Shown piece by piece: positions 19,567 to 31,987 of a stretch of DNA of 64,000 nucleotides. A program made the position numbers and the translations under genes. This DNA comes from Candidatus Nanoarchaeia archaeon. GTDB taxonomy: Archaea; Nanobdellota; Nanobdellia; Pacearchaeales; GW2011-AR1. Below the pieces are notes generated by a model. It saw only the letters and a program-made list of their open reading frames with translations, had not been told where the DNA came from and did not search any database. The stretch is taken from NCBI GenBank assembly GCA_028718805.1, contig JAQUKY010000001.1, forward strand, positions 16,384 through 80,383, given 5' to 3'. Numbering within the stretch: position 1 is the first letter of the stretch; each line of letters starts with the position of its first letter.

Positions 19567-21891
19567 ATGGACAATTATGATTCAAAGAAGGTAGAGGAAA
19601 AAATAAGGCGTTTTTGGGATAAAGAGAAAATCTTTAAGTTTGATTTAAAGAAAAAAGGGAGAGTTTATTCTATTGATACTCCTCCGCCAACTGTTTCCGG
19701 AAAAATGCATATTGGCCATGCTTATATGTATTCTCAAATGGATTTTGTTGCCAGGTTTAGAAGGATGTTTGGATTAAATGTTTTTTATCCTTTTGGGACA
19801 GATGATAATGGTTTGCCAACAGAAAGGTTAATTGAGAAGCTGAAAAATGTTAAAAGCAAAAGCATGAAAAGAGAAGAATTCATAAAGCTTTGCCTTAAAA
19901 CTTTAAAAGAAATAACCCCCGGTTTTATTCAGGACTGGAGAATATTAGGTATTTCAGCAGATTATTCTCTTTGTTATTCTACTATTGATGATAATTCCAG
20001 GAGATTGTCACAAAAGTCTTTTATTGAGCTGTATAAAAAAGGATTGATTTATAAAAAGGGATTTCCAACTCTTTGGTGCCCTGAATGCCAGACATCTGTT
20101 GCACAGGCAGAATTAGAGGACAAAGAAATTCCAAGTTTATTTTCAACATTAAAATTTAATTGTAATGGGAAAGATCTATTGATTGCCACAACACGCCCAG
20201 AACTTTTAGGTGCATGTGTTGCTGTTTTTGTTAATCCTAAAGATAAAAGATATGCTGATTTAATTGGAAAAAAAGCAAAAGTTCCATTATTTGATTTTGA
20301 GGTTCCTGTTATTTCTGATGAATCTGCTGATATGGAAAAAGGAACAGGTGTTTTGATGATATGTTCTTATGGGGATAAGTATGATGCAGAGGCAATTAAT
20401 AGGCATAAATTAGAACCAAGAATTGTCTTGAACTTAGATGGAACACTAAAAATAAAACCCTATGAAGGATTGAAAATTAAAGAGGCAAGGAAGAAGATTT
20501 TAGAAGAGTTAAAGGAAAAAAATCTGATTACAGAACAAAAACAAATTTCTCATGCTGTTAATACCCATGATAAATGCGGGACTGAGATTGAATTTTTGCC
20601 AACTGAACAGTGGTTTATCAAAATCCTTGATAAAAAGAAAAAGTTTATTGAGCAGGGCAATAAGATAAAATGGCATCCTGAGTTTATGCATAAAAGATAT
20701 GACAACTGGGTTAATGGATTAGAATGGGACTGGAATATTTCAAGAGACAGGCATTTTGGGGTCCCTATTCCTGTCTGGCAGTGCGAGAAATGCAAAGGAA
20801 TTATTATTGCTGAAGAAAAAGACCTGCCTGTTGATCCTACTACAACAAAAAAGAAATGCCTTAAATGCAAACAAGAAGCAAAAGGAGAGGAAAAAGTTCT
20901 TGATACCTGGATGACTTCTTCAATTTCACCGCAAATTGCTTCAAGCTTGATTAAGGAGAAAGTTAAGATTCCATTTTCATTAAGGCCCCAAGCTCATGAC
21001 ATAATAAGGACTTGGTTGTTTTATACACTGACAAAATCTCTGCTCCATGAAAATAAAATTCCCTGGGAAAATGTGATGGTTTCCGGATTTGTTACATTAG
21101 GGGGGGAGAAAATGTCAAAGTCAAAGGGAAATGTTATTTCTCCCCAGGAAGTTATGGAAAAATATAGCGCAGATACATTGAGATTCTGGGCAGCTGGTTC
21201 AAAACTTGGTGAAGATTTAGATTATCAGGAAAAAGACATTGTTGCAGGAAAGAAATTTGAAACCAAGCTGTGGAATGCAAGCAGGTTTGTTTTTATGAAT
21301 CTAAAAGACTTTAATGGTAAGAAGCCTAAAAGCTTGATAAAAATTGATGAGTTATTTTTAAGAAAATTAAATTCTCTGGTTAAGTCTATTACAGGTGGGT
21401 TTGAAAATTATGAATATTCAAAAGCTAAAATTGAAACAGAGAAGTTCTTTTGGCAGATGTTTTGTGATAATTATCTGGAGATTGTTAAAAAGAGAATATA
21501 TAATAATAAAAAGGGAAAAGAAAGTGCTCAATATGCTTTATATACTGGACTTTTAACAATACTAAAACTAATTGCTCCTATAATGCCATTTATAACAGAA
21601 GAAATATATTTGGAAAATTTCAAGAAGACTGAAAAAGATAAAAGCATTCACATAAGTAAGTGGCCTGAATATGGAAAAGAAGGAAAAGCAGATGAATTTG
21701 ATTTATTTATTTCTATTTTAGGAAAAATCAGGCAGGAAAAAACAAATAACAAGAAGGCAATGAATGCAGAAATAATCTTGACTATTGAAGATAAAGATTA
21801 TAGACAAATAAAAGAAATGATTGAAGATTTAAAAGATGTTGCAAATGCAAGGGAGATAAAAACAGGGGGGTTCGGGGTGGAGTTTGTGTAA
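19567..21891 (+). CDS. valS: valyl-tRNA synthetase
   Basis: PPPTVSGKMHIGHAY (HIGH), KMSKSKGN (KMSKS) and an editing-domain-sized insertion. 774 aa. Confidence 0.9.
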   Translation: MDNYDSKKVEEKIRRFWDKEKIFKFDLKKKGRVYSIDTPPPTVSGKMHIGHAYMYSQMDFVARFRRMFGLNVFYPFGTDDNGLPTERLIEKLKNVKSKSMKREEFIKLCLKTLKEITPGFIQDWRILGISADYSLCYSTIDDNSRRLSQKSFIELYKKGLIYKKGFPTLWCPECQTSVAQAELEDKEIPSLFSTLKFNCNGKDLLIATTRPELLGACVAVFVNPKDKRYADLIGKKAKVPLFDFEVPVISDESADMEKGTGVLMICSYGDKYDAEAINRHKLEPRIVLNLDGTLKIKPYEGLKIKEARKKILEELKEKNLITEQKQISHAVNTHDKCGTEIEFLPTEQWFIKILDKKKKFIEQGNKIKWHPEFMHKRYDNWVNGLEWDWNISRDRHFGVPIPVWQCEKCKGIIIAEEKDLPVDPTTTKKKCLKCKQEAKGEEKVLDTWMTSSISPQIASSLIKEKVKIPFSLRPQAHDIIRTWLFYTLTKSLLHENKIPWENVMVSGFVTLGGEKMSKSKGNVISPQEVMEKYSADTLRFWAAGSKLGEDLDYQEKDIVAGKKFETKLWNASRFVFMNLKDFNGKKPKSLIKIDELFLRKLNSLVKSITGGFENYEYSKAKIETEKFFWQMFCDNYLEIVKKRIYNNKKGKESAQYALYTGLLTILKLIAPIMPFITEEIYLENFKKTEKDKSIHISKWPEYGKEGKADEFDLFISILGKIRQEKTNNKKAMNAEIILTIEDKDYRQIKEMIEDLKDVANAREIKTGGFGVEFV

Positions 21892-21892
21892 A

Positions 21893-22141
21893 TCATTTAT
21901 TTTTTCTTAAGTGATACTCTCCCTTATTGTTTTGATAAAGAACTATTATCTCATTATTTTTTCTATGCAAAATCAAGTCATCTAATTCATCTTTATTGAC
22001 ATCTTTTTTAATAGCAACAGGAACTCTTTCAAGGTCTATTTGTTTTTGGTATTGTCGATAATGAATAGGAGACAATATTAAAACCCCTAACAAAAAACCA
22101 GTTATTTTATCATCCTTTCGGTTTTTATTTTCCATTTTCAT
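21893..22141 (-). CDS. hypothetical small membrane protein (82 aa)
   Basis: One hydrophobic helix (ITGFLLGVLILSPI). 4-nt overlap with the upstream gene. Confidence 0.4.
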   Translation of the reverse strand: MKMENKNRKDDKITGFLLGVLILSPIHYRQYQKQIDLERVPVAIKKDVNKDELDDLILHRKNNEIIVLYQNNKGEYHLRKNK

Positions 22142-22452
22142 TCTATTCCACTAGATGCCTTCTTAATTTTATATTCTTCGATACTCCTTTTAGCTAAAGG
22201 AATGTGATTCTCTAAATAATTTTTTAAAGAGACATATTTTTCACTTGAGTACTTAACCAGAATAATATTTTTTCCTAATGGCCGATTTAAAACTATTATT
22301 GAGGGTCTATTTTCATTTTCTTTGTAAATACTTGCTTCATAATAAGGCTGTATAAAGAAAGTTGAGACCAATCCTCCTAAAAATCCAGTAACTCCCGCAA
22401 ATGCAATTTTTTCTAGAGTAGTAATCTTTGGTTTGATATTTTTGTTTTCCAT
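22138..22452 (-). CDS. hypothetical small membrane protein (104 aa)
   Basis: One hydrophobic helix (IAFAGVTGFLGGLVSTFFI). Operonic spacing with both neighbours. Confidence 0.4.
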   Translation of the reverse strand: MENKNIKPKITTLEKIAFAGVTGFLGGLVSTFFIQPYYEASIYKENENRPSIIVLNRPLGKNIILVKYSSEKYVSLKNYLENHIPLAKRSIEEYKIKKASSGIE

Positions 22453-22454
22453 TT

Positions 22455-23015
22455 TTATTTTTCTCTTGAGATTATGTTCTCCATACCTTTCAAACAGCTT
22501 TTCTCCAACTTGCTAAAATTTCCTTTTAATATGCTAATTTCATCATCAATCTTGTTTTGCTTCACTACATAGTCCTCTATAACTTCAATTATTCTGGGAT
22601 CACAAGCGAGAGTATGATAAGTATTAAATACATTTAACATACGATTAGCATCCTCGGCCTCACTGCAATAAACTCTAAAATGATTAGCCATCCCAGAAGT
22701 CTCAACTCCTGTTTTTTTAGAAACAAAATTTTTCAAAATTCCTATTCCTCCGGATATATTCCCCCATAACACAGGTTTACGAAAAGGTTTTTGGCTATAG
22801 TACGGATTATCTAATTTGACAGATAAATTAAATAAATCGGGATCTATCTCAAGATTATAAGAGATAATTAAATTACTATCTTCTTTATGCAGATAGGGTA
22901 CAGCTTTTTTTACTTCCCCCATCTTTGATAGCTTAAAATCTAATAAACTTTCGATATCTAAGTATAATTGAGACTCTGGGTCTTTTCCATCAAAATATTT
23001 TTCTATTTTTTTCAT
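22455..23015 (-). CDS. hypothetical protein (186 aa)
   Basis: ORF only. First gene of a three-gene minus-strand unit. Confidence 0.45.
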   Translation of the reverse strand: MKKIEKYFDGKDPESQLYLDIESLLDFKLSKMGEVKKAVPYLHKEDSNLIISYNLEIDPDLFNLSVKLDNPYYSQKPFRKPVLWGNISGGIGILKNFVSKKTGVETSGMANHFRVYCSEAEDANRMLNVFNTYHTLACDPRIIEVIEDYVVKQNKIDDEISILKGNFSKLEKSCLKGMENIISREK

Positions 23016-23250
23016 CTTAGTTGTTTTTCATTTGTTTGTTTTATACCTGCATTATGTATCTGCAGGTTGTTTTGTTTAACTTAATAGTAGTAATGAAATA
23101 CACATATTTAATACTTTTTTCACTATTTTATTACTTTTGAGTAAAATTTATAAACTATACACACATAATAAAGAATAATAGCAACCTATAAAGATAAACC
23201 CCGAAGCTAATACTAAAACAAGAAAATCCAAAACTAAAAATTTATAAAGG

Positions 23251-23274
23251 ATATTAACTATATATAGTTAATAT
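23251..23274. promoter_or_regulatory. perfect 24-nt palindrome, candidate operator upstream of the MNT-HEPN-Lrp operon
   Basis: ATATTAACTATA|TATAGTTAATAT ends 60 nt upstream of the 23334 ATG. Another ATTAAC half-site follows immediately. Confidence 0.4.
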
Positions 23275-23333
23275 TAACCAAAAATGAATAATCTAAATAA
23301 TTGTAAAATAAACAAGAATCTAACTATCTAAAA

Positions 23334-23909
23334 ATGAATAACCTATTAAAACTGATTTACACTTTAGGGAAAAATCTGAAAGAAGAAATAACTTTAAGAG
23401 AACTTTCTGTTCAGGCAAAAGTGGCTTACACAACTGCTTATAGAGAAGTTATGTTTAATAAAGATATTTTTATAATAAACAAAAAAGCAAATATTAATTT
23501 ATGTTCTCTTAATTTAAAAGATAGTATAACAAAAAACTACCTTATTATTGCAGAAAGAGAAATTGCAAAAGAATTTCTAAAAAATAACAAGATTTTTTCT
23601 TTAATAAAAAAAGAACTTGTTGAAGGGGATTATTCATTAGTATTATTTGGTTCAAGAGCAGAAGGAAAAGAAAGGGAAAAAAGTGATATTGATTTATGCA
23701 TAATAAACAAAGAGGGAAAGAAAGTCATTAAATTGGACAAATTTGAATCTTTATTTGATTTAGAGATTAATCCAATTTATTTAAGCAGGCAGGAATTTCA
23801 GGCAATGATAAAGGAATCTGAAGAAAATCTTGCAAAACAAATAATAAAAAAGCATATTGTCTTGTATGGAGAAGAATATTTTTGGAGGCTGATCTTAAAT
23901 GATATTTAA
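23334..23909 (+). CDS. minimal nucleotidyltransferase (MNT-type) with N-terminal winged-helix-like segment
   Basis: LVLFGSRAEGKEREKSDIDLCII (G-S-x9-D-x-D). Confidence 0.7.
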   Translation: MNNLLKLIYTLGKNLKEEITLRELSVQAKVAYTTAYREVMFNKDIFIINKKANINLCSLNLKDSITKNYLIIAEREIAKEFLKNNKIFSLIKKELVEGDYSLVLFGSRAEGKEREKSDIDLCIINKEGKKVIKLDKFESLFDLEINPIYLSRQEFQAMIKESEENLAKQIIKKHIVLYGEEYFWRLILNDI

Positions 23910-24423
23910 CACTAAGTTTTATAAAAGAGAGTTTGAAAGACTTCTTAAAACAAAAAAAAGGAAGAAGTTTTATATTAAAAATAGCACCTCTCTTTTCAAG
24001 ATTAAAAAGTTTATAAAAAAAGGAGTAGATAGTTTTGAGCTTGCAGGATTTATAAAAAAATCTTCTCAAAATGCAAAAGACTACTGGACAATTGTAATTT
24101 GTTATTATTCTATGCTTTATCTGGCAAAAGCATTAATTTTAACTAAAGATTATGAAACAGATGACCATTATTCTACTCAAATTGCTCTCGGGCATCTCTT
24201 TCTTGAAGATAAGCTAAATCAGCAGGATATTGAAGTATTAAATAAAGCATATCAAACATTTGAGCAGGAATACATAGATTATTTTCATGATGCAAGAAAA
24301 GAAAGTAAGATAAGCAGATATTCCACTACAACAATATATTCTCAAAGAAGAGTTGAAGAAATTTATCATAATTCAAAAAAATTCATAGCTAAATTATTGG
24401 TTTTATTAGAAAAATGGCAGTAG
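23899..24423 (+). CDS. HEPN domain protein (partner of the MNT)
   Basis: Overlaps the MNT gene by 11 nt. All-helical, with an R-x5-H candidate motif (RRVEEIYH) near the C-terminus. Confidence 0.55.
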   Translation: MIFNTKFYKREFERLLKTKKRKKFYIKNSTSLFKIKKFIKKGVDSFELAGFIKKSSQNAKDYWTIVICYYSMLYLAKALILTKDYETDDHYSTQIALGHLFLEDKLNQQDIEVLNKAYQTFEQEYIDYFHDARKESKISRYSTTTIYSQRRVEEIYHNSKKFIAKLLVLLEKWQ

Positions 24424-25385
24424 GAAAGATTAAATTAGACCTAAAAGATAAGAAACTTTTAACTTTACTTGATGAAAATTCAAGATACAGCAATAGCCAG
24501 ATTGCTAAAAAAGTTGGATTAAGCAAACCTGCTGTTGAGTACAGAATTAAAAGATTTGAAAAAAATAATGTAATCTTTAATTTTTATGCTGTTGTTGATT
24601 TCACAAAATTAGGATATTCCCAGTATAAGTTATACATTAAATTTCAGAATACAAATTTGGAAGATGAACAGAAAATAATAGATTATTGGATTAGGACAAA
24701 AAATGTTATGTGGGTTGCTGAAATTAGAGGAAGATGGGATTTAACAGTTTCTATGCTTGCTAAATCAAATTTTGAGTTTGGAAAGATTTTATACGGTTTT
24801 ATGAACAAATTTTCAAAATTTGTCCTTGAAAAAGATGTTCTTTTAACAGAATACTCTCCTATTTATTCAAGAGAGTATTTAACAGAGACAAAGCCAAAGG
24901 AATTTGTTTATGGAATTCCTGAAAAAATTTATGAACTTGATGAAGCAGACATAAAGATATTGCAGGAACTTTCAACAAATGCTAGGATTAATTTTGTTGA
25001 CTTGGCTGAAAAAACAAAATTAACAAGAGATATTATAAATTATAGGATAAAAAAATTAACAGAAAAGGGGATTGTTATTCAATATCGCTGTTATCTTAAT
25101 CTGCAAAATCTGGGGATTAATCATTATAAAGTAATTTTCAGGACAAAAAATCTTGATGAAACAGCTGAAAACAAGATTAAACAATATACGAAGAAGCATA
25201 AAAAAGCAACACAATTCTTAAAATTAATTGGAAGCTGGGATTTGGAGATAGAGTTTGAAACTGAAAATGAAGATGAATTGTACAGAATCTTAACTGAAAT
25301 AAGAAAAGAATTTTCAGATATAATAAGAGATTTTGATATTTTAAGAATAACAAAAAATTATAAATTTAGTTTTTTTCCGTTTTAA
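24414..25385 (+). CDS. tandem (two-unit) Lrp/AsnC-fold protein, paralog 2
   Basis: LDLKDKKLLTLLDENSRYSNSQIAKKVGLSKPAVEYRIKRFEKNNVI and LDEADIKILQELSTNARINFVDLAEKTKLTRDIINYRIKKLTEKGIV, each followed by a G-x-W-D-L type effector domain. Overlaps the HEPN gene by 10 nt. Confidence 0.8.
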   Translation: MAVGKIKLDLKDKKLLTLLDENSRYSNSQIAKKVGLSKPAVEYRIKRFEKNNVIFNFYAVVDFTKLGYSQYKLYIKFQNTNLEDEQKIIDYWIRTKNVMWVAEIRGRWDLTVSMLAKSNFEFGKILYGFMNKFSKFVLEKDVLLTEYSPIYSREYLTETKPKEFVYGIPEKIYELDEADIKILQELSTNARINFVDLAEKTKLTRDIINYRIKKLTEKGIVIQYRCYLNLQNLGINHYKVIFRTKNLDETAENKIKQYTKKHKKATQFLKLIGSWDLEIEFETENEDELYRILTEIRKEFSDIIRDFDILRITKNYKFSFFPF

Positions 25386-25394
25386 TAATAGGGT

Positions 25395-25835
25395 CTATTT
25401 AATCATCCCGTAATCCCGCATATCTTTAACAAAATCAGCCCTATTTTTTGCAAAAAATATGTTCTCATCTTTCGCATCTTTACTAATGTAACATCTCCAG
25501 AAAGGTGGATGAGAAGTCCTGTGATCTACTGAACCATCTGCGTATTCATCAATATAACCTTCACATTTTTCAGTTAGGACATTTTTCTCAAAATATGACT
25601 CACAAAGCATACTTCCTGCACTTACAAAATTTTCTGTGTGCCTATCATTAGCAAGATATCTTCTAAAGATTCTTTTAGTAAAAAGGCCCTTTGTTTTTAC
25701 TGATTGAAAGAAATGTGATTCTTTATCATAATAAATGTTATTATTAGACAAATAAAAATTCAGAAAACTTCCTGCTGCTATTACGCCAATTGCAACTGGC
25801 AAAACTGATATTTTTAATATTTTTTTAAGGTTCAT
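25395..25835 (-). CDS. hypothetical membrane-anchored protein (146 aa)
   Basis: N-terminal signal/anchor helix (ISVLPVAIGVIAAGSFL). Confidence 0.45.
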   Translation of the reverse strand: MNLKKILKISVLPVAIGVIAAGSFLNFYLSNNNIYYDKESHFFQSVKTKGLFTKRIFRRYLANDRHTENFVSAGSMLCESYFEKNVLTEKCEGYIDEYADGSVDHRTSHPPFWRCYISKDAKDENIFFAKNRADFVKDMRDYGMIK

Positions 25836-25995
25836 ATTATTATTTGATTATTCCTGCTTAGTTTATAAGAATTGTTATTTTTAAGAATAACTGATAGATA
25901 ATAGCAAGTTTGGGGTGGAGTTTGTATAAGATAAATTTATAAATACCTTCATATTCGTATTTTCACCTCAGGGAAAAAGAGTTCTGATATGAAAA

Positions 25996-26835
25996 ATGTT
26001 TGAGAGATTTACAGATAGGGCGAGAAAAGTAATGGCTCTTGCAAACCAAGAGGCTCAAAGGTATAATCATGATTTTGTTGGTAGTGAGCATATTCTTTTA
26101 GGATTAATAGAAGAAGGTTCTGGGGTAGGCGCTACTGTATTAAAAGGTTTTGATTTAAATCTTGAAGATTTAAGAAAAGAGGTACAAAATTTAGTGCCTC
26201 AAGGTCCTGATACGGTTACTATGGGTAGTTTGCCTATAACCCCCCTAGCAAAAAAAATAGTTGAAAATGCAATCGACTATTCTCGTGAGATTGGGCATAA
26301 CTATGTTGGAACAGAACATTTGCTTTATGGATTAGTTTCATTAGAAGAAGGGCCTGGAGCAGAAATATTGAAAAAACATGGTTTGGATAAGGATAAAGTG
26401 GTGAATGAGTTGGAAAATCTGCTTGGGATAAACTCGGATGATTTGGCTACACCCGCAGGAGTTATCGATTATTGGAAAATTCCTAAAGGAAATATAAATC
26501 TTGAAAAATTTTTAGAAACCGCTGGGTATGAGGTATTAAAAGAGGAAGAAGATCCTTTGAGAATCTTTAAAAGAGAAAGTCCTGACTCTGCATTGGAGGT
26601 TGGGAGACTTGATTTAACTCTTGGAGATCCTGTGAGATATGATTCTCCAATCATTGTTTATTTTCCAAGTAATAAAGAGCAAATAAAAGAAGCTCTTGAT
26701 TTAAGGGACCTTTTTGATGTTAATAATGTCAAATATTCAGAAGAGCCTCCTGCATCAGAAGTTGTAAAAGAGTTAAGGCAACCTTTTGAAGAAGAGATAG
26801 ATCCTATTATAAAAAGATTAGAAAAAATGGTTTAA
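25996..26835 (+). CDS. Clp N-terminal (double Clp_N repeat) domain protein without an AAA+ module
   Basis: MFERFTDRARKVMALANQEAQRYNHDFVGSEHILLGLIEEG and TPLAKKIVENAIDYSREIGHNYVGTEHLLYGLV are the two Clp_N repeats. The C-terminal ~130 aa are unassigned and there is no Walker motif. Confidence 0.75.
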   Translation: MFERFTDRARKVMALANQEAQRYNHDFVGSEHILLGLIEEGSGVGATVLKGFDLNLEDLRKEVQNLVPQGPDTVTMGSLPITPLAKKIVENAIDYSREIGHNYVGTEHLLYGLVSLEEGPGAEILKKHGLDKDKVVNELENLLGINSDDLATPAGVIDYWKIPKGNINLEKFLETAGYEVLKEEEDPLRIFKRESPDSALEVGRLDLTLGDPVRYDSPIIVYFPSNKEQIKEALDLRDLFDVNNVKYSEEPPASEVVKELRQPFEEEIDPIIKRLEKMV

Positions 26836-26980
26836 GATTGAGTTTGATTAACCTGATTAACTTATAATTTTATAAAATTTTATTATACTATTAATTGCAA
26901 AGCGTTTATAAATTATTGATTACTGATAAAAGCGTCTTTTTTCAAAAAAAGATGCAGGCAAAAAATTTAAGGACTAAAAA

Positions 26981-29365
26981 ATGGCACTATCAGAAGCTGA
27001 AAAATTAAGACTTGAAGAATTTGTTGAAGAAATGAAATCACATAGAGCAAGGCATACAGAACTTATTACTGTTTATGTTCCAAAAGGATATGACATTAAT
27101 TTTATCACCAAGCAACTGGAATCTGAAAAATCAACTGCTGCTAACATAAAAAGCACTGGCACAAGAAAGAATGTCCAGGATGCCTTGGAAAGCCTGATTA
27201 GAATTGCAAAAGGAATGAAATCAACACCTAAAAATGGAGTTGCTTTATTTGCGGGAAATGTATCCAAGGTTGAAGGGCAAGATAATTTTATAACAGAGAT
27301 TTTTGAGCCTCCTGAAGAACTCAATGTCCGGTTATACAGATGCGACCAGACTTTTGTTTTAGAACCTCTTGAAGAGATGTTGGAGATAAAGGAATTATAT
27401 GGGTTGGTTGTAATTGAGAGGCAGGAAGCTACAATTGGAATGTTAGTTGGAAAGAAAATCAAAGTTCTTCAAAAATTTGATTCAATGGTTCCTGGAAAGA
27501 CAAATAAGGGTGGGCAGTGTTTATCCCCTGATACTTTTATTATGAAAGATGATGGGGAGATAATTGAGATTAAAAACTGCCATAATCCTTTAATTCTTGT
27601 TTCTGAAAATTTTAACAATGAAAAAAGCGAATTAACACCCGTGATAGAAAAATGGGAAAATGAAAAACCCATCTTTAGAATCAAAACTAAAAACCCTGTT
27701 TTTGAAATTAGTGCTTCTCAAGACCACTTATTTTTTGTAAGAACTGAAAATGGAATTGAAGAGAAGCCATTGTCTGTGATTAGAGAAGGGGATTATTTAA
27801 TAATTCCTTCTAAAATAAATATAGAAGGAAAGTTACAAGAAATTAATTTTAAGCCGCAAAAAATCAAGAAAACGAAAGAAATAATATTTCCTAAATTTTT
27901 GAATGAAGATTTAGTTAAGATTTTTGGTTATTATTTAGGTGATGGTAATTGGGAAGAGTATAGAATAAATTTTTCAGAACAAAGAAAAGAAGTTGCGAAT
28001 TATTATAAAAATCTATTAGAAAGCGTTTTTAAAATACCTTGTAGTTTGAGATTTAGAGAAAATAAAGGCTATTATCAATTAAGGATCCATAATCTTTATT
28101 TATCTCAGTTTTTTAGAGAATACTTCCCATTAAAAAATAAAACTCTTGAAGAAGAGATACCTAAAAGCATACTCATATCTCCAGATAATGTGCTTGCATC
28201 TTTTATCTCTGGATTTTTTGATGCAGAAGGATATGTTTCTGATTCACGAATTGGTCTTGGAATAAATAATAAGAAAATAGCTAAACAGCTTCAGTTAATT
28301 CTCTTAAGGTTGGGGATTGTTTCATCTATTTTAGAATACGATAACAGAAGAAATCTTTATTCTAATAAAACAAGGTATACTATCGAAATAAATGGGATAG
28401 ATTCTATGAAAAGTTTTTTTGAAAAAGTTGGTCTTTCTTCTACAGAAAAAAACATTAAACTTAAAAAAATTATAGAGAAAAGAGGAAATCAGGACCACAT
28501 TGATCAATTAGTTGTTAATGGCAGAGAAGTTGCTAAAATAATAAGAAATTCTGGGGAATTGCTGCAAAAATTTAATTGCCCTATGTTTTTTTCAAATAAA
28601 AGGCAGATGAGCAGACAGGTTTTTAAAAGGAGAATTTTAGACAAAATAGATAATTCTGAATTGAAGAGAAGATTGGAATTTTTTTATGGTTCAAACCTTA
28701 CTATTGCTAAGATAAACAAAATTTTTCCTATAGGGAAGAGTTTAACTGTTGATATTGAAACTAAAAATCATAATTTTTTGGCTAATGGTATATTGGTTCA
28801 TAATTCAGCAGCACGTTATAGCAGGATAAGAGATAATATGGCCAGGGATTTTTTCAGGAAAATTGCAAGTGTAATGAAAGATGAATTTTTTGATTTAAAA
28901 GGATTAAAAGGGATATTAGTTGGAGGGCCTGGGCCAACTAAAGAGGATTTTGTAAAAGAAGGGGAATTAGTAACTGCCCTAAAAGAAAAGATACTTGCTA
29001 TAAAAGATATTGGTTATGCAGATGAACATGGCTTGGAATTGCTGGTTGGTGTTAGTGGTGATGTTTTAGCAGGGCAGGAAATTTATCGTGAGAAGAAGCT
29101 TTTAGAGAATTTTTTTAATATGCTTGGAAAAGAAAAAGATAAAACAGCATATAAAGAAAAAGATATTGAAAAAGCTCTTAGTTATGGCGCAGTTGATACG
29201 CTTTTGCTTTCAAAAAAGCTGAAAAAAGAGATTATAAGCAAATATGAGAAAAAAGCAGCTGAAACAAGTGTAAAAGTTGAATTAGTTTCAGTTGACACTC
29301 CTGAGGGCCAGCAGTTCTGGAATTTGGGGGGGGTTGGGGCTGTTCTGAGGTTTAGGGTGCAATAA
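26981..29365 (+). CDS. prf1: peptide chain release factor aRF1, interrupted by an intein
   Basis: NIKS motif (TAANIKS), YxCxxxF motif (LYRCDQTF) and GGQ (TNKGGQ). The exteins total 179 + 186 aa. Confidence 0.9.
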   Translation: MALSEAEKLRLEEFVEEMKSHRARHTELITVYVPKGYDINFITKQLESEKSTAANIKSTGTRKNVQDALESLIRIAKGMKSTPKNGVALFAGNVSKVEGQDNFITEIFEPPEELNVRLYRCDQTFVLEPLEEMLEIKELYGLVVIERQEATIGMLVGKKIKVLQKFDSMVPGKTNKGGQCLSPDTFIMKDDGEIIEIKNCHNPLILVSENFNNEKSELTPVIEKWENEKPIFRIKTKNPVFEISASQDHLFFVRTENGIEEKPLSVIREGDYLIIPSKINIEGKLQEINFKPQKIKKTKEIIFPKFLNEDLVKIFGYYLGDGNWEEYRINFSEQRKEVANYYKNLLESVFKIPCSLRFRENKGYYQLRIHNLYLSQFFREYFPLKNKTLEEEIPKSILISPDNVLASFISGFFDAEGYVSDSRIGLGINNKKIAKQLQLILLRLGIVSSILEYDNRRNLYSNKTRYTIEINGIDSMKSFFEKVGLSSTEKNIKLKKIIEKRGNQDHIDQLVVNGREVAKIIRNSGELLQKFNCPMFFSNKRQMSRQVFKRRILDKIDNSELKRRLEFFYGSNLTIAKINKIFPIGKSLTVDIETKNHNFLANGILVHNSAARYSRIRDNMARDFFRKIASVMKDEFFDLKGLKGILVGGPGPTKEDFVKEGELVTALKEKILAIKDIGYADEHGLELLVGVSGDVLAGQEIYREKKLLENFFNMLGKEKDKTAYKEKDIEKALSYGAVDTLLLSKKLKKEIISKYEKKAAETSVKVELVSVDTPEGQQFWNLGGVGAVLRFRVQ
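27518..28804 (+). mobile_element. intein (429 aa) with LAGLIDADG homing-endonuclease domain, inserted after GGQ of aRF1
   Basis: Junctions are GGQ|CLSPDTFI and NGILVHN|SAARYSRIRD. Block B-like SQDHLFF. Two LAGLIDADG motifs (IFGYYLGDGNW, FISGFFDAEGYV). Coordinates were derived by codon counting and checked against tgt (27518-27520) and aat (28802-28804). Confidence 0.85.
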
Positions 29366-29409
29366 AAGATAGCAGTATTTATAAATAAATAATGTTTTGT
29401 AGGGTTTAT

Positions 29410-30324
29410 ATGATTAGCGCAAATAAGAAGGAACGAATAGCCTATGAAGTTATAAAGACACTTAAATCTAGATTTGAGTCTTTTCCAGAAGATTCGAAAA
29501 ATAATAGAAATGCTCCGTTTCATGAAGCATTTCTTAATGCATTTTCTAATAAATTAGAAGGCAACATTAAAGATGCGCCTTATTTAATAAGTCTTAGTAG
29601 TTGGTTGCATGGGCTCAATACTACGCTAGGCCAATCCTTTTTTGAGAATATCGCACATATCTTATCTGGTGGAATAAAAAAGGAATTCACAAAGAAGAAA
29701 AGAAGTTCTTTGTGTATTACGACCATACAACAAAGTGAAATTGCATCAATAATTACTAGTCTTAAAAGCCAGTCAAGAAAACCAAACCTAGTTGGAGAGA
29801 ATAAATTAATCTTTCAATTAGATAAATCAACTATAGTTGAAGCCATGGATTTTACAGCAGATAATTATATTGAAACGGATACAATTATTGAAGCTATTGA
29901 ACTAAAATCTGTTAAGCCTAATTCGGGGGAGATGAGAGGAGAAAAACAAAAAATATTAATCGCCAAGGCCGCACTTAAGAAGAAGTATCCTTCAAAAGAT
30001 ATTAAATTTTATATAGGATTTCCTTTTGATCCAACTTCCTCTACACTTGCGGGTACCGACAAAAATAGGTTTATGAGTTCTATAATTGAATTTAATAAAT
30101 TTTTTAGTTCTGATGAAGTATTGATAGGAGATGAATTGTGGGATCAGCTTTCTGGGGATGAAAAGACTATGCAGCAAATATTGGATATAATAAATAAAAT
30201 TGCTACTAAAGATTTTATTGATAATTTTAATTTTCTTAAAAATCCTGAAAATCAAAAAAGTAATCCAAAGAAATATGATAAACTCATAAAAGAATGGAAT
30301 CTGAGCAGTAAATTGCTAACTTAA
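29410..30324 (+). CDS. putative type II restriction endonuclease
   Basis: Tail-to-tail with the methyltransferase, 61-nt gap. Candidate PD-(D/E)xK core (MDFTADNYIE...IEAIELKSVK). Start set at ATG 29410 (MISANKK). Confidence 0.5.
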   Translation: MISANKKERIAYEVIKTLKSRFESFPEDSKNNRNAPFHEAFLNAFSNKLEGNIKDAPYLISLSSWLHGLNTTLGQSFFENIAHILSGGIKKEFTKKKRSSLCITTIQQSEIASIITSLKSQSRKPNLVGENKLIFQLDKSTIVEAMDFTADNYIETDTIIEAIELKSVKPNSGEMRGEKQKILIAKAALKKKYPSKDIKFYIGFPFDPTSSTLAGTDKNRFMSSIIEFNKFFSSDEVLIGDELWDQLSGDEKTMQQILDIINKIATKDFIDNFNFLKNPENQKSNPKKYDKLIKEWNLSSKLLT

Positions 30325-30385
30325 TCTTATCAAAATATCATTCATTTGTTTCTCTTTGAAAACTAGTTTTATAATAAAATGCTTA

Positions 30386-31987
30386 TTAATGCTGCATCTT
30401 CCTCATATGAAATATAATTTCAGCATAGGGCTGCCTATCTCTTTCTGTTCTATTCAAGACTGGTCTTTTGAATTGTTCGATAATCTTCAAACCGCTTTTT
30501 TCAGCAATTAACGGATATAAATTATATTTATCGTTAGCAACTATAAAAAGATCTCCATCGTCTTTGATAAACTTGCTTATATTAATAAAAACCTTACTTA
30601 TTCCTTCAACATATTCATCTTTTGCTTTTTGTCCTTGACCCTTGGATAAAGGCCCTATTTCTTTATTATCTTCTCTTGGTATACTAAAAAGTTCATAAGC
30701 ATAAGCATGTTGTTCATGATAATTAATTTGACCAACATAAGGAGGAGAAGTAAAAACACCATCTATTTTTTTAGCAGTTAATAAATTATAGAACTCTGGA
30801 TTTTTATTTTTTATCTCTTCGAATATGTTCACTTCTCTTGAGTCTCCATGAATAATCTCGCTAGATACATTCTTTTTTAATTTTGAAAATTCATCTATTC
30901 TTTTTACTGTGTCATAAGTATACCTTATCAAGTGTTTGATAATAGAATTTATTGGGGTACATAGCTTCTTATGTTTTCTGCAGTAATAAGGACATGTTTG
31001 TGGCTCTGTTAATGTTGCCAAATCAGAATGAGTAGTGGCTCTGCATGAACGAGCAGTTCTACTCAAAATAATTCTTAGGACATTCATTAAATTTTCATCT
31101 TCAACTTTTCTTAAAAGTTTGATATAATAAAATAATTCTTGCTTTACTCTTTTTGAAAACCATTTATTCAAAAAATTACTCATCTCTTTTTCGTTCAATA
31201 AATTAGATTTATCCTTTGTTCCATTTTTTTCAAAAAATTCTTCATTTTCTTTTAGAAATTGTTTAAGTTTTTCTTCCCCATATTGTTCTTCATTACTCAC
31301 TATGCCTTTCCAAATATTTTTCTTAAATTCAGGATTAGGAAAATATTTTTTGTTGAACTCATTTAATCTTTCTTTTAATTGCTCATCAAACGAATCATCA
31401 AACACTTCTTGACTAAACTCTACTGTCTTGAAACAGATATCTCTAGCTTTCTTGTCTAGCATGGATAAATCATACTCTCCAACTTTGACTTCAGAAATTA
31501 AACAATTAAAATCAGAAACATCTATTCCAATAGAGTGCAAACCTAGTTCTGAGCATTGAACAAGTGTTGTTCCGCTTCCCATAAAAGGATCCAGTATGAT
31601 ATTCCCAGATTTAAAAAAAACTTCTTTTTTGAAAGTATTAAGATGAGGATCTAAAAAATATTCTACTAATTGGGGGATAAACTTCCCCTTGTAAGGATGC
31701 AATCTATGAACATGCTTTGTGGTATCGGATTCTTTTAAATGTCCGAAAGACAAACCCCAGTTTAAATCTTTACCTAATCTCTTTTTCCACTCTTCTTCTT
31801 TTTTGATATCTCTTTCATAATAATTTTTTAATTCATCTACGTTTATAGTAGTATTATTTTTATAAAAGGTTTTAGCTACTTTTGCATATTGAATAAGATA
31901 CTGAATATTTGAAATAGTTACTGGTCTACCTAAGAACTTTGTTGCCCATTCTGAGGCCTCTTTTATTGACAAAAGTTCTTGACTCAT
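30386..31987 (-). CDS. DNA amino-methyltransferase (N4-cytosine or N6-adenine)
   Basis: AdoMet motif I DPFMGSGTT and catalytic motif IV TSPPYVG, separated by about 280 aa (a presumptive target-recognition insert). Confidence 0.8.
   Translation of the reverse strand: MSQELLSIKEASEWATKFLGRPVTISNIQYLIQYAKVAKTFYKNNTTINVDELKNYYERDIKKEEEWKKRLGKDLNWGLSFGHLKESDTTKHVHRLHPYKGKFIPQLVEYFLDPHLNTFKKEVFFKSGNIILDPFMGSGTTLVQCSELGLHSIGIDVSDFNCLISEVKVGEYDLSMLDKKARDICFKTVEFSQEVFDDSFDEQLKERLNEFNKKYFPNPEFKKNIWKGIVSNEEQYGEEKLKQFLKENEEFFEKNGTKDKSNLLNEKEMSNFLNKWFSKRVKQELFYYIKLLRKVEDENLMNVLRIILSRTARSCRATTHSDLATLTEPQTCPYYCRKHKKLCTPINSIIKHLIRYTYDTVKRIDEFSKLKKNVSSEIIHGDSREVNIFEEIKNKNPEFYNLLTAKKIDGVFTSPPYVGQINYHEQHAYAYELFSIPREDNKEIGPLSKGQGQKAKDEYVEGISKVFINISKFIKDDGDLFIVANDKYNLYPLIAEKSGLKIIEQFKRPVLNRTERDRQPYAEIIFHMRKMQH

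What the first reader, a model, noticed from the sequence alone, without database searches (positions are those of the whole stretch)
27518..28804. LAGLIDADG intein inserted directly after the catalytic GGQ of the sole visible class I release factor
Seen: the aRF1 ORF carries NIKS, YxCxxxF and GGQ motifs, but GGQ is followed by CLSPDTFI. 429 aa later, NGILVHN is followed by SAARYSRIRD, which resumes the normal aRF1 sequence. Splice-junction residues are canonical (Cys1, terminal His-Asn, +1 Ser), and two LAGLIDADG motifs are present. The insertion interrupts the peptidyl-tRNA hydrolysis loop, so translation termination depends on protein splicing. Inteins are known to prefer conserved catalytic sites. 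I do not recall aRF1 after GGQ as a catalogued insertion site, but I cannot verify that here.
Basis: partly seen in the sequence, partly recalled or inferred. Interest (0 to 1): 0.7.

Follow-up and report, generated by a model that had tools for sequence, protein, structure and literature searches.

The report
Mobile intein splitting archaeal release factor
The only release factor gene seen in this small archaeal genome fragment is interrupted, right after its catalytic GGQ motif, by an ordinary self-splicing intein with a homing endonuclease; the same intein sits at this site in many related DPANN archaea, but I found no paper that describes it.

Summary
ORF 26981-29365 (+) encodes a 794-aa aRF1 with NIKS, YxCxxxF and GGQ. 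A 429-aa insert at nt 27518-28804 begins with Cys directly after GGQ and ends His-Asn before Ser.

Removing the insert gives a 365-aa aRF1 that aligns without a gap to solved aRF1 and to an intein-free allele that is 95% identical. The insert matches intein splicing and LAGLIDADG models. Its predicted fold matches the TliVMA, PI-PfuI and PI-SceI inteins.

The element is not rare. At least 120 protein clusters and 51 species-representative genomes (Pacearchaeota, Woesearchaeota, Nanoarchaeota) carry it at the identical GGQ|C...HN|S junction. The same site also occurs empty, with mini-inteins, and with HTH-expanded inteins. Intein and host-gene similarities disagree in both directions, and the endonuclease domain changes no faster than the exteins. 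Together this points to a splicing-competent, still-mobile class 1 intein.

Mechanistically it is ordinary. I found no paper describing a release-factor intein, so I rate it a new member of a known kind.

One by-product deserves its own study. A large clade of DPANN aRF1s has GGM, GGW, GGF or GGY instead of the supposedly universal GGQ.

The parts
26981..27517 (+). N-extein of aRF1 (aa 1-179): domain N and the first part of domain M, ending in the catalytic GGQ
   Evidence: TIGR03676 aligns to aa 8-180. Pfam eRF1_1 covers aa 20-134. This stretch is 90% nt identical to L001 2253-2792.
27143..27154 (+). NIKS stop-codon recognition motif
27335..27355 (+). YxCxxxF motif (YRCDQTF)
27509..27517 (+). 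GGQ peptidyl-tRNA hydrolysis motif; the Gln is the -1 residue of the intein
   Evidence: GGQ is invariant in 120/120 intein-bearing homologues.
27518..28804 (+). 429-aa class 1 intein with a nested LAGLIDADG homing endonuclease (calculated 50.2 kDa, pI 9.3)
   Evidence: Pfam and NCBIfam matches. The AF2 model has pLDDT 90.4. Foldseek top hit is TliVMA intein 7qss at E 1.9e-28, TM 0.76. It is a clean 1287-nt indel against the intein-free allele L001.
27518..27556 (+). Intein block A (CLSPDTFIMKDDG) with the Cys1 nucleophile
   Evidence: C1 is invariant; L2, S3, D5 and T6 are nearly invariant.
27701..27739 (+). Intein block B (FEISASQDHLFFV) with the S67-x-x-H70 motif
   Evidence: S67 and H70 are invariant in alignment A2.
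27911..27952 (+). First LAGLIDADG motif (LVKIFGYYLGDGNW); candidate catalytic Asp142
   Evidence: G137, Y138, Y139, G141, D142 and G143 are invariant. Pfam LAGLIDADG_3 matches.
28193..28237 (+). Second LAGLIDADG motif (LASFISGFFDAEGYV); candidate catalytic Glu237
   Evidence: F229, G232, D235, A236, E237 and G238 are invariant.
28742..28804 (+). Intein blocks F and G (LTVDIETKNHNFLANG ILVHN) with the penultimate His and the terminal Asn
   Evidence: D412, I413, E414, T415, H418, N419, F420, A422, N423, H428 and N429 are invariant. TIGR01443 scores 26.2 bits.
28805..29365 (+). C-extein of aRF1 (aa 609-794 plus the stop codon), starting with the Ser+1 nucleophile: the rest of domain M and domain C
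   Evidence: Pfam eRF1_2 covers aa 608-689 and eRF1_3 covers aa 702-793. This stretch is 88% nt identical to L001 2796-3342. S+1 is invariant.

Best explanation
The gene encodes the archaeal class I release factor aRF1 as a 91-kDa precursor. A canonical class 1 intein sits between Gln179 of GGQ and Ser of the conserved GGQ-S-A-x-R loop at the tip of domain M.

Inferred mechanism, from the established intein pathway:
- After translation the intein folds.
- Cys1 performs an N-S acyl shift.
- Ser+1 attacks the resulting thioester.
- Asn429 cyclises, assisted by His428, and releases the intein.
- An O-N shift then leaves a native Gln-Ser peptide bond, giving a 41-kDa aRF1 with an intact GGQ loop and a free 50-kDa intein.

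Only the spliced protein can reach the peptidyl-transferase centre. Termination by this gene product therefore requires splicing.

The free intein is a two-motif LAGLIDADG homing endonuclease. It most likely cuts intein-less aRF1 alleles around ...GGTGGGCAG|TCAGCAGCA... and is copied in by repair. This keeps it circulating among Pacearchaeota/Woesearchaeota-type DPANN archaea.

Shown here: the sequence anatomy, the fold, exact-site conservation, the existence of empty, mini and full alleles, and intein histories that disagree with host-gene histories. Inferred: splicing activity, endonuclease activity and the target sequence.
For: Exact junctions and motifs are.

GGQ|C...HN|S is invariant in 120/120 homologues. 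Blocks A, B, F and G and both LAGLIDADG acidic residues are invariant in 39 diverse sequences.

The spliced sequence aligns without a gap to aRF1 4af1 at 1.6e-63. The AF2 model (pLDDT 90.4) matches whole-intein crystal structures TliVMA 7qss (TM 0.76), PI-PfuI 1dq3, PI-TkoII 2cw7 and PI-SceI, and its endonuclease core matches I-DmoI.

Intein-free alleles reach 95% aa and 88% nt identity, with a clean 1287-nt difference. Mini-inteins of 133-141 aa and HTH-expanded inteins of about 500 aa occupy the same site. An extein NJ tree needs at least 28 presence/absence changes, against a shuffled mean of 79.

Over 7140 pairs the intein is 65% identical against 59% for the extein, with r = 0.44. Discordance runs both ways, for example extein 52%/intein 76% and extein 92%/intein 68%. 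Median omega is about 0.23 for the endonuclease domain, 0.18 for the splicing domain and 0.30 for the exteins.

51 GTDB species-representative genomes carry GGQ|C. No other eRF1-like gene lies in the window.
Against: No experiment was done: splicing, endonuclease activity and target site are all inferred.

The N-terminal intein model TIGR01445 falls 0.1 bit below its cut-off.

dS is close to saturation (0.8-1.5), so the omega values are only relative. The trees are simple NJ trees, and the samples are biased by how the searches rank hits. Full-intein proteins, including the query itself, were missing from the extein search list, so allele frequencies cannot be read off.

A large clade of about 40 species representatives all carry the intein. 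That could reflect vertical inheritance rather than ongoing homing.

No related intein was found in viral contigs that could act as a vector. A second aRF1 elsewhere in the genome cannot be excluded.
Confidence: 0.85

Rival explanations
1. The intein splices but is no longer mobile. On this view it is inherited vertically, the endonuclease is inactive or decaying, and the patchy distribution reflects repeated precise loss only.
For: A clade of about 40 species-representative genomes all carry the full-length intein. Mini-inteins at the same site show that the endonuclease can be lost. No viral carrier was found.
Against: Both LAGLIDADG motifs and their acidic residues are invariant. The endonuclease domain's dN is no higher than that of the essential exteins. 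Many pairs have inteins much more similar than their exteins, for example 76% against 52%, which vertical descent does not predict. Empty alleles occur at 95% extein identity to the window.
Confidence: 0.12
2. The intein has been co-opted as a post-translational switch. Splicing would be conditional, for example on redox state, temperature or host contact. The unspliced precursor could still bind stop codons through domain N but could not hydrolyse, so it would throttle termination.
For: The intein, endonuclease included, is on average more conserved than the host protein. It sits in the one loop whose integrity decides activity. Conditional splicing is established for other archaeal inteins; the RadA case is cited in PMC4760082.
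Against: Close relatives do well with an empty site or a mini-intein, so the intein is dispensable. No conserved extra Cys or sensor feature was seen; Cys21 of the window's intein is Ser in the consensus of the relatives. Conservation is equally well explained by selection for fast splicing and continued homing.
Confidence: 0.08
3. The insert is not a functional intein. It would be a non-splicing insertion, a pseudogene or an assembly chimera.
For: None specific. The intein has lower G+C than the exteins (27.5% against 36%).
Against: The reading frame is open across 794 codons. An identical protein is in NCBI and on 2 contigs. More than 120 independent clusters share the same architecture with all catalytic residues invariant. 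The exteins are conserved like an essential gene.
Confidence: 0.01

Closest known systems
Thermococcus litoralis / Pyrococcus horikoshii VMA inteins (PDB 7qss, 7qsu, 7qst)
   Same: These are the best sequence matches (6.8e-13) and the best fold matches (E 1.9e-28, TM 0.76). Both have a class 1 HINT splicing domain with a nested two-motif LAGLIDADG endonuclease, inserted in a catalytic loop of an essential archaeal protein.
   Different: The host protein is the V-ATPase A subunit P-loop, not a translation factor. Identity is only about 17-19%. The hosts are thermophilic Euryarchaeota rather than DPANN.
PI-PfuI (Pyrococcus furiosus RNR intein, 1dq3), PI-TkoII (2cw7) and PI-SceI (yeast VMA1, 1vde)
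   Same: The overall architecture is shared. These are experimentally proven splicing-plus-homing enzymes and serve as the mechanistic template used here.
   Different: Different hosts and extra DNA-binding domains. The window's intein has only a short linker where PI-PfuI has its stirrup domain. Some relatives carry an XRE-type HTH there instead.
Inteins in other archaeal translation factors (aIF2/IF-2)
   Same: An intein inside a core translation factor. NCBIfam's intein-containing IF-2 model PRK14845 matches the insert at 2.4e-20. aIF2 is listed among archaeal intein hosts in PMC4760082.
   Different: Those inteins sit in GTPase P-loop regions. This one splits the GGQ hydrolysis loop of the release factor. 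PMC4760082 states that core translation components contain few inteins, and its main text does not mention a release factor.
Nearest non-aRF1 relatives in the 50%-identity library: inteins of MCM, RadA, ribonucleotide reductase, acetyl-CoA synthetase and an AAA ATPase
   Same: 26-32% identity over the whole intein, and the same domain order. One MCM intein also carries an HTH_3 domain.
   Different: They are separated from the aRF1 group by a large score gap. aRF1-hosted representatives make up 62 of the best 150, so the aRF1 inteins appear to form their own lineage.

Membership tests
Intein (class 1 protein-splicing element) | Nucleophilic Cys/Ser as the first residue, directly after the N-extein | tested here: met
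   Cys180 at nt 27518; Cys in 120/120 homologues
Intein (class 1 protein-splicing element) | Block B Thr/Ser-x-x-His | tested here: met
   S67-Q-D-H70 in FEISASQDHLFFV; S67 and H70 are invariant
Intein (class 1 protein-splicing element) | C-terminal His-Asn followed by a Cys/Ser/Thr +1 residue | tested here: met
   H428-N429|S; invariant in 120/120; TIGR01443 scores 26.2 bits against a cut-off of 15.6
Intein (class 1 protein-splicing element) | In-frame insertion whose removal restores the contiguous conserved host sequence | tested here: met
   Gapless alignment of the spliced sequence with aRF1 4af1 and with intein-free P0121; clean 1287-nt indel against L001
Intein (class 1 protein-splicing element) | HINT fold of the splicing domain | tested here: met
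   AF2 model with pLDDT 90.4; whole-chain Foldseek matches to crystal structures of inteins, TM 0.62-0.76; Pfam Intein_splicing 53.6 bits against a cut-off of 35.8. TIGR01445 (N-terminal) is borderline at 24.4 against 24.5.
Intein (class 1 protein-splicing element) | Autocatalytic excision and extein ligation | not testable with these tools
   Needs expression and SDS-PAGE/MS. Expected sizes: 91.2 kDa precursor, then 41.0 + 50.2 kDa products.
LAGLIDADG homing endonuclease (two-motif, intein-encoded) | Two LAGLIDADG motifs, each ending in an acidic residue | tested here: met
   GYYLGDG (D142) and GFFDAEG (E237), invariant; Pfam LAGLIDADG_3 at 8e-20 with 2 stretches
LAGLIDADG homing endonuclease (two-motif, intein-encoded) | Pseudo-dimeric alpha-beta-beta-alpha-beta-beta-alpha core fold | tested here: met
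   Predicted secondary structure for residues 130-305; Foldseek matches to I-DmoI and I-Tsp061I with target TM 0.7-0.75
LAGLIDADG homing endonuclease (two-motif, intein-encoded) | Sporadic distribution with empty target sites in close relatives, and element history differing from host history | tested here: met
   Empty alleles at up to 95% identity; at least 28 state changes on the extein tree; intein/extein discordance
LAGLIDADG homing endonuclease (two-motif, intein-encoded) | Site-specific cleavage of the intein-less allele | not testable with these tools
   Indirect test: +1 Ser is AGY in 34/81 empty alleles against 1/50 occupied alleles. This is confounded by phylogeny, and the codon-class switch rate is not unusual, so the test is inconclusive.
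aRF1 (archaeal class I release factor, TIGR03676) | Equivalog HMM score above the curated cut-off, with three eRF1 domains | tested here: met
   361 bits with the intein and 391 bits spliced, against a cut-off of 234.7; Pfam eRF1_1, eRF1_2 and eRF1_3
aRF1 (archaeal class I release factor, TIGR03676) | NIKS, YxCxxxF and GGQ motifs | tested here: met
   aa 55-58, 119-125 and 177-179
aRF1 (archaeal class I release factor, TIGR03676) | Only class I release factor of the genome | tested here: inconclusive
   No other eRF1-like sequence in the 64-kb window. The rest of the genome was not available.

The most novel reading that the evidence does not exclude
The intein is more than a parasite. In these tiny-genome DPANN archaea it would be retained as a gate on translation termination. 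The precursor can still read stop codons but cannot hydrolyse, so the rate or conditions of splicing would set how much active release factor the cell has.

The evidence does not exclude this reading. The intein, including its endonuclease, is on average better conserved than the essential host protein. It is also present in every sampled member of a large clade.
Probability: 0.08. Interest if true: 0.75.

Novelty: new member of a known kind. Interest (0 to 1): 0.4.

Why it matters
This adds the catalytic GGQ loop of the release factor to the list of intein insertion sites. A published survey says core translation components contain few inteins (PMC4760082), so the addition is of some note.

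The site shows all stages expected of a homing cycle: empty, full, mini and HTH-expanded alleles. It occurs in uncultured DPANN archaea, which makes it a useful natural system for studying intein dynamics and gene flow in these lineages.

There is also a practical point. NCBI names the window's protein, and several of its homologues, only as 'LAGLIDADG family homing endonuclease'. Their aRF1 can therefore be missed in gene inventories of these genomes.

An intein that switches a release factor on by splicing could also be of use for engineering conditional termination.

Tried and rejected
1. Endonuclease-immune empty alleles. The +1 Ser codon is AGY in 34/81 empty alleles but 1/50 occupied alleles (Fisher 9e-8). 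However, most occupied alleles belong to one clade. The number of TCN/AGY switches at this Ser (21) is also not an outlier against other invariant Ser codons (13, 15, 4) or against Arg and Leu classes. I therefore do not claim this as evidence of immunity.

2. Viral vector. Scanning IMG/VR with the intein profile gave only three distant LAGLIDADG matches at 23-27% identity.

3. Prior description. Seven full-text searches pairing intein(s) with aRF1, eRF1, 'release factor', 'peptide chain release factor', Pacearchaeota or DPANN found no paper describing a natural release-factor intein. The supplement of the main survey (PMC4760082) is not held, and InBase could not be consulted.

4. Second release factor or second intein in the window. 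None was found.

5. G+C difference. The intein is 27.5% G+C, the exteins 36% and the window 31%. I considered this as a sign of foreign origin but judged it uninformative.

6. Allele frequencies from the search lists. I rejected this because full-intein proteins, including the query itself, were absent from the extein search output.

7. Absolute dN/dS values. dS is near saturation, so only relative comparisons are used.
Full report
**Observation**

The window holds one long ORF at 26981..29365 on the + strand, 794 aa. Its translation contains NIKS (aa 55-58), YRCDQTF (aa 119-125) and GGQ (aa 177-179). Cys180, encoded from nt 27518, follows GGQ directly. The insert runs 429 residues to ...GILVHN, ending at nt 28804, and SAARYSRIRD follows.

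The whole ORF scores 361 bits against the NCBIfam aRF1 equivalog TIGR03676 (cut-off 234.7). The conceptually spliced 365-aa protein scores 391 bits. Pfam finds eRF1 domains 1-3, with eRF1_2 matched in two stretches, its best one (aa 608-689) starting right at the C-terminal junction. Within the insert Pfam finds Intein_splicing (2.8e-14) and two stretches of LAGLIDADG_3 (8.2e-20). No other frame carries an ORF of 80 aa or more inside the insert. No second eRF1-like or intein sequence lies in the 64 kb.

**What the insert is**

All defining sequence features of a class 1 intein are present:
- Cys1.
- Block B, S67-x-x-H70.
- Block F, VDIETKNHNF.
- The terminal H428-N429.
- Ser+1.

The two LAGLIDADG motifs end in Asp142 and Glu237. 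In an alignment of 39 diverse homologues all of these residues are invariant. In 120 homologues the junction GGQ|C...HN|S is invariant.

An AlphaFold2 model of the insert is confident (pLDDT 90.4, pTM 0.90). Its best PDB matches are whole inteins with nested endonucleases: TliVMA 7qss (E 1.9e-28, TM 0.76), PI-PfuI, PI-TkoII and PI-SceI. The free-standing LAGLIDADG enzymes I-DmoI and I-Tsp061I follow, matching the core. Sequence search of the PDB agrees.

The spliced extein aligns without a gap across 'VPGKxxKGGQSAxRxxRxR' with Halobacterium aRF1 4af1 at 1.6e-63. The boundaries therefore coincide with GGQ|S.

**How common it is**

The identical protein is in NCBI as MDD5192211.1, 'MAG: LAGLIDADG family homing endonuclease [Candidatus Nanoarchaeia archaeon]'. 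The best 120 clusters in the 5.8-billion-protein collection are all aRF1s of about 790 aa with the intein at the same place. Sources call them Pacearchaeota or Nanoarchaeota, and JGI labels several 'eRF1/intein/homing endonuclease'.

In the library of 50%-identity representatives, 62 of the 150 best matches to the intein alone are aRF1-hosted. These include aRF1s with the long zinc-ribbon C-domain, which lie well outside the window's clade. The nearest non-aRF1 relatives, at 26-32% identity, are inteins of MCM, RadA, RNR, acetyl-CoA synthetase and an AAA ATPase.

Among one-genome-per-species GTDB representatives, 51 loci carry GGQ|C with 47-72% intein identity. One of them is the single-cell genome SCGC AAA011-D5.

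**Signs of a homing cycle**

Searching with the spliced extein returns intein-free aRF1s at up to 95% aa identity (P0121). It also returns seven proteins with mini-inteins of 133-141 aa at the same junction. A further variant of 499-501 aa carries an XRE-type HTH between the N-terminal splicing lobe and the endonuclease.

At DNA level the closest empty allele (L001) is 88% identical over the exteins and differs by a clean 1287-nt indel.

On an NJ tree of 238 exteins, intein presence/absence needs at least 28 changes, against a shuffled mean of 79. Over 7140 pairs of intein-bearing proteins the intein is more similar (65%) than the extein (59%), and the correlation is weak (r = 0.44). Discordance runs both ways: P0012-P0090 has extein 52% and intein 76%, while P0008-P0010 has extein 92% and intein 68%.

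Nonsynonymous divergence of the endonuclease domain is not higher than that of the exteins. Median omega is 0.23 for the endonuclease, 0.18 for the splicing domain and 0.30 for the exteins, with dS near saturation.

These results fit a splicing-competent intein whose endonuclease is still under selection and which moves between lineages. There are caveats:
- The search lists are biased samples.
- The trees are simple NJ trees.
- One clade of about 40 species representatives carries the intein throughout, which vertical descent could also explain.

**Mechanism and consequence**

This section is inference from established intein chemistry and release-factor structure. GGQ lies at the tip of domain M and must enter the peptidyl-transferase centre; it is described as universally conserved in a/eRF1 (PMC2613156). 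A 50-kDa domain inserted after the Gln should block that step.

The precursor (91.2 kDa) should therefore be inactive in hydrolysis until splicing yields the 41.0-kDa factor. In Haloferax the GGQ Gln of aRF1 is methylated and this requires Mtq2 (PMC6144793). I infer that any such modification here would follow splicing. None of this was tested.

**Comparison and novelty**

This is a typical archaeal LAGLIDADG intein in an atypical host. The published survey I could read lists aIF2 among archaeal hosts, says core translation components contain few inteins, and does not mention a release factor in its main text (PMC4760082); its supplement was not available. Seven literature searches found no description of a natural release-factor intein.

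The site is thus undescribed in the papers I could search, but plainly visible in public data. I rate it a new member of a known kind, of moderate interest.

**By-products**

1. aRF1 with GGQ replaced.
   - Several aRF1-hosted inteins follow GGF, GGW or GGM instead of GGQ.
   - A profile of these exteins retrieves 120/120 intein-free aRF1s with GGM (82), GGW (34), GGF (2) or GGY (2).
   - None of them has GGQ anywhere. NIKS or NVKS is present in 117 of 120, YxCxxxF is present in 118 of 120, and Gln usually sits at +2.
   - NCBI names several of them aRF-1 of Aenigmatarchaeota.
   - One GGM gene lies directly downstream of a class I aminoacyl-tRNA synthetase gene with the same Pfam domain make-up as the one upstream of aRF1 in the window and in L002, and its codon is ATG. 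In L001 a cut-off upstream gene, 82.5% nt identical to the window's synthetase gene, lies about 150 nt upstream of aRF1.
   - On an NJ tree Q/non-Q needs three changes.
   - This contradicts the 'universally conserved GGQ' statement. A GGQ paralogue elsewhere in those genomes was not excluded. It deserves separate study.

2. Two inteins in one aRF1. Two aRF1s (P0302, P0339) carry two inteins, the second inside YxCxxxF.

3. Variable flanks of aRF1 in the window.
   - About 5 kb between the synthetase gene and aRF1 is absent in L001. It holds nucleotidyltransferase/HEPN, HTH and Clp_N genes.
   - A TdeIII-type restriction-modification pair lies between aRF1 and ScpB.

Noticed in passing
Related proteins P0391-P0510 and P0248, P0265, P0276, P0279-P0281, P0285, P0286, P0288, P0289; locus L164 10001-11212: A large clade of DPANN aRF1s, several named Aenigmatarchaeota aRF-1 by NCBI, has GGM, GGW, GGF or GGY in place of the 'universally conserved' GGQ. 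Of 120 retrieved, none has GGQ anywhere. NIKS or NVKS is present in 117 of 120 and YxCxxxF in 118 of 120, and Gln usually sits two residues downstream (GGxSQ). One GGM gene lies directly downstream of a class I aaRS gene with the same Pfam domain make-up as the one upstream of aRF1 in the window and in L002, and its codon is ATG. Most members are intein-free, but some carry the same-site intein. A GGQ paralogue elsewhere in those genomes was not excluded. No paper linking GGQ or aRF1 with DPANN terms turned up.
   Followed up: partly
Related proteins P0302 (1187 aa) and P0339 (1452 aa): These two aRF1s carry two inteins. One lies inside the stop-codon recognition motif YxCxxxF (...TYLYM|CLSPGT...FLVHN|CDDHYH...). 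The other is at GGQ|C...HN|S. aRF1 therefore has at least two intein insertion sites, both in functional motifs.
   Followed up: partly
Related proteins P0017, P0021, P0022, P0024, P0027, P0040 and many 850-915-aa representatives: A variant of the same intein, about 500 aa long, has a roughly 70-aa XRE-type helix-turn-helix (PF01381/PF12844) between the N-terminal splicing lobe and the endonuclease. This is presumably an added DNA-binding module. An MCM intein relative (P0287) also carries HTH_3.
   Followed up: partly
Loci L002 and L003, 5001-6497 (P0128); also P0129, P0130, P0188, P0207, P0232, P0236: Mini-inteins of 133-141 aa without an endonuclease occupy the identical GGQ|C...HN|S site. 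By eye their splicing blocks are recognisably related to the full-length intein but clearly divergent, so they are probably not recent deletion derivatives.
   Followed up: partly
window 21892-26980 and 29392-31987: aRF1 is flanked by variable accessory DNA. About 5 kb between the class I aaRS gene (19567-21891) and aRF1 is absent from L001. It holds a nucleotidyltransferase/HEPN pair (23334-24423), a double-HTH regulator (24414-25385) and a Clp_N protein (25996-26835). Downstream, a TdeIII-type restriction endonuclease (29392-30324) and an N6/N4 DNA methylase (30386-31987, minus strand) lie between aRF1 and ScpB. L002 has a PIN/RHH pair at that position instead.
   Followed up: partly
window 26981-29365; NCBI MDD5192211.1 and MDD5740395.1: NCBI names the window's protein, and several of its homologues, only as 'LAGLIDADG family homing endonuclease' or 'hypothetical protein'. 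Their release factor is therefore hidden in annotation-based gene inventories of these MAGs.
   Followed up: no
Junction codons in loci L001-L160 and window 27509-27517 / 28805-28810: The invariant +1 Ser is encoded by AGY in 42% of empty alleles but in 1 of 50 intein-bearing alleles. The closest empty allele (L001) differs from the window by synonymous changes on both sides of the insertion point (GGC GGT CAG|AGC against GGT GGG CAG|TCA). This suggests target-site immunity but is confounded by phylogeny.
   Followed up: yes
Loci L012, L047, L079: Genome bins labelled 'Candidatus Paceibacterota bacterium' and 'uncultured Methanosarcinales archaeon' carry this DPANN-type aRF1 intein. These are probably mislabelled or contaminated bins.
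   Followed up: no
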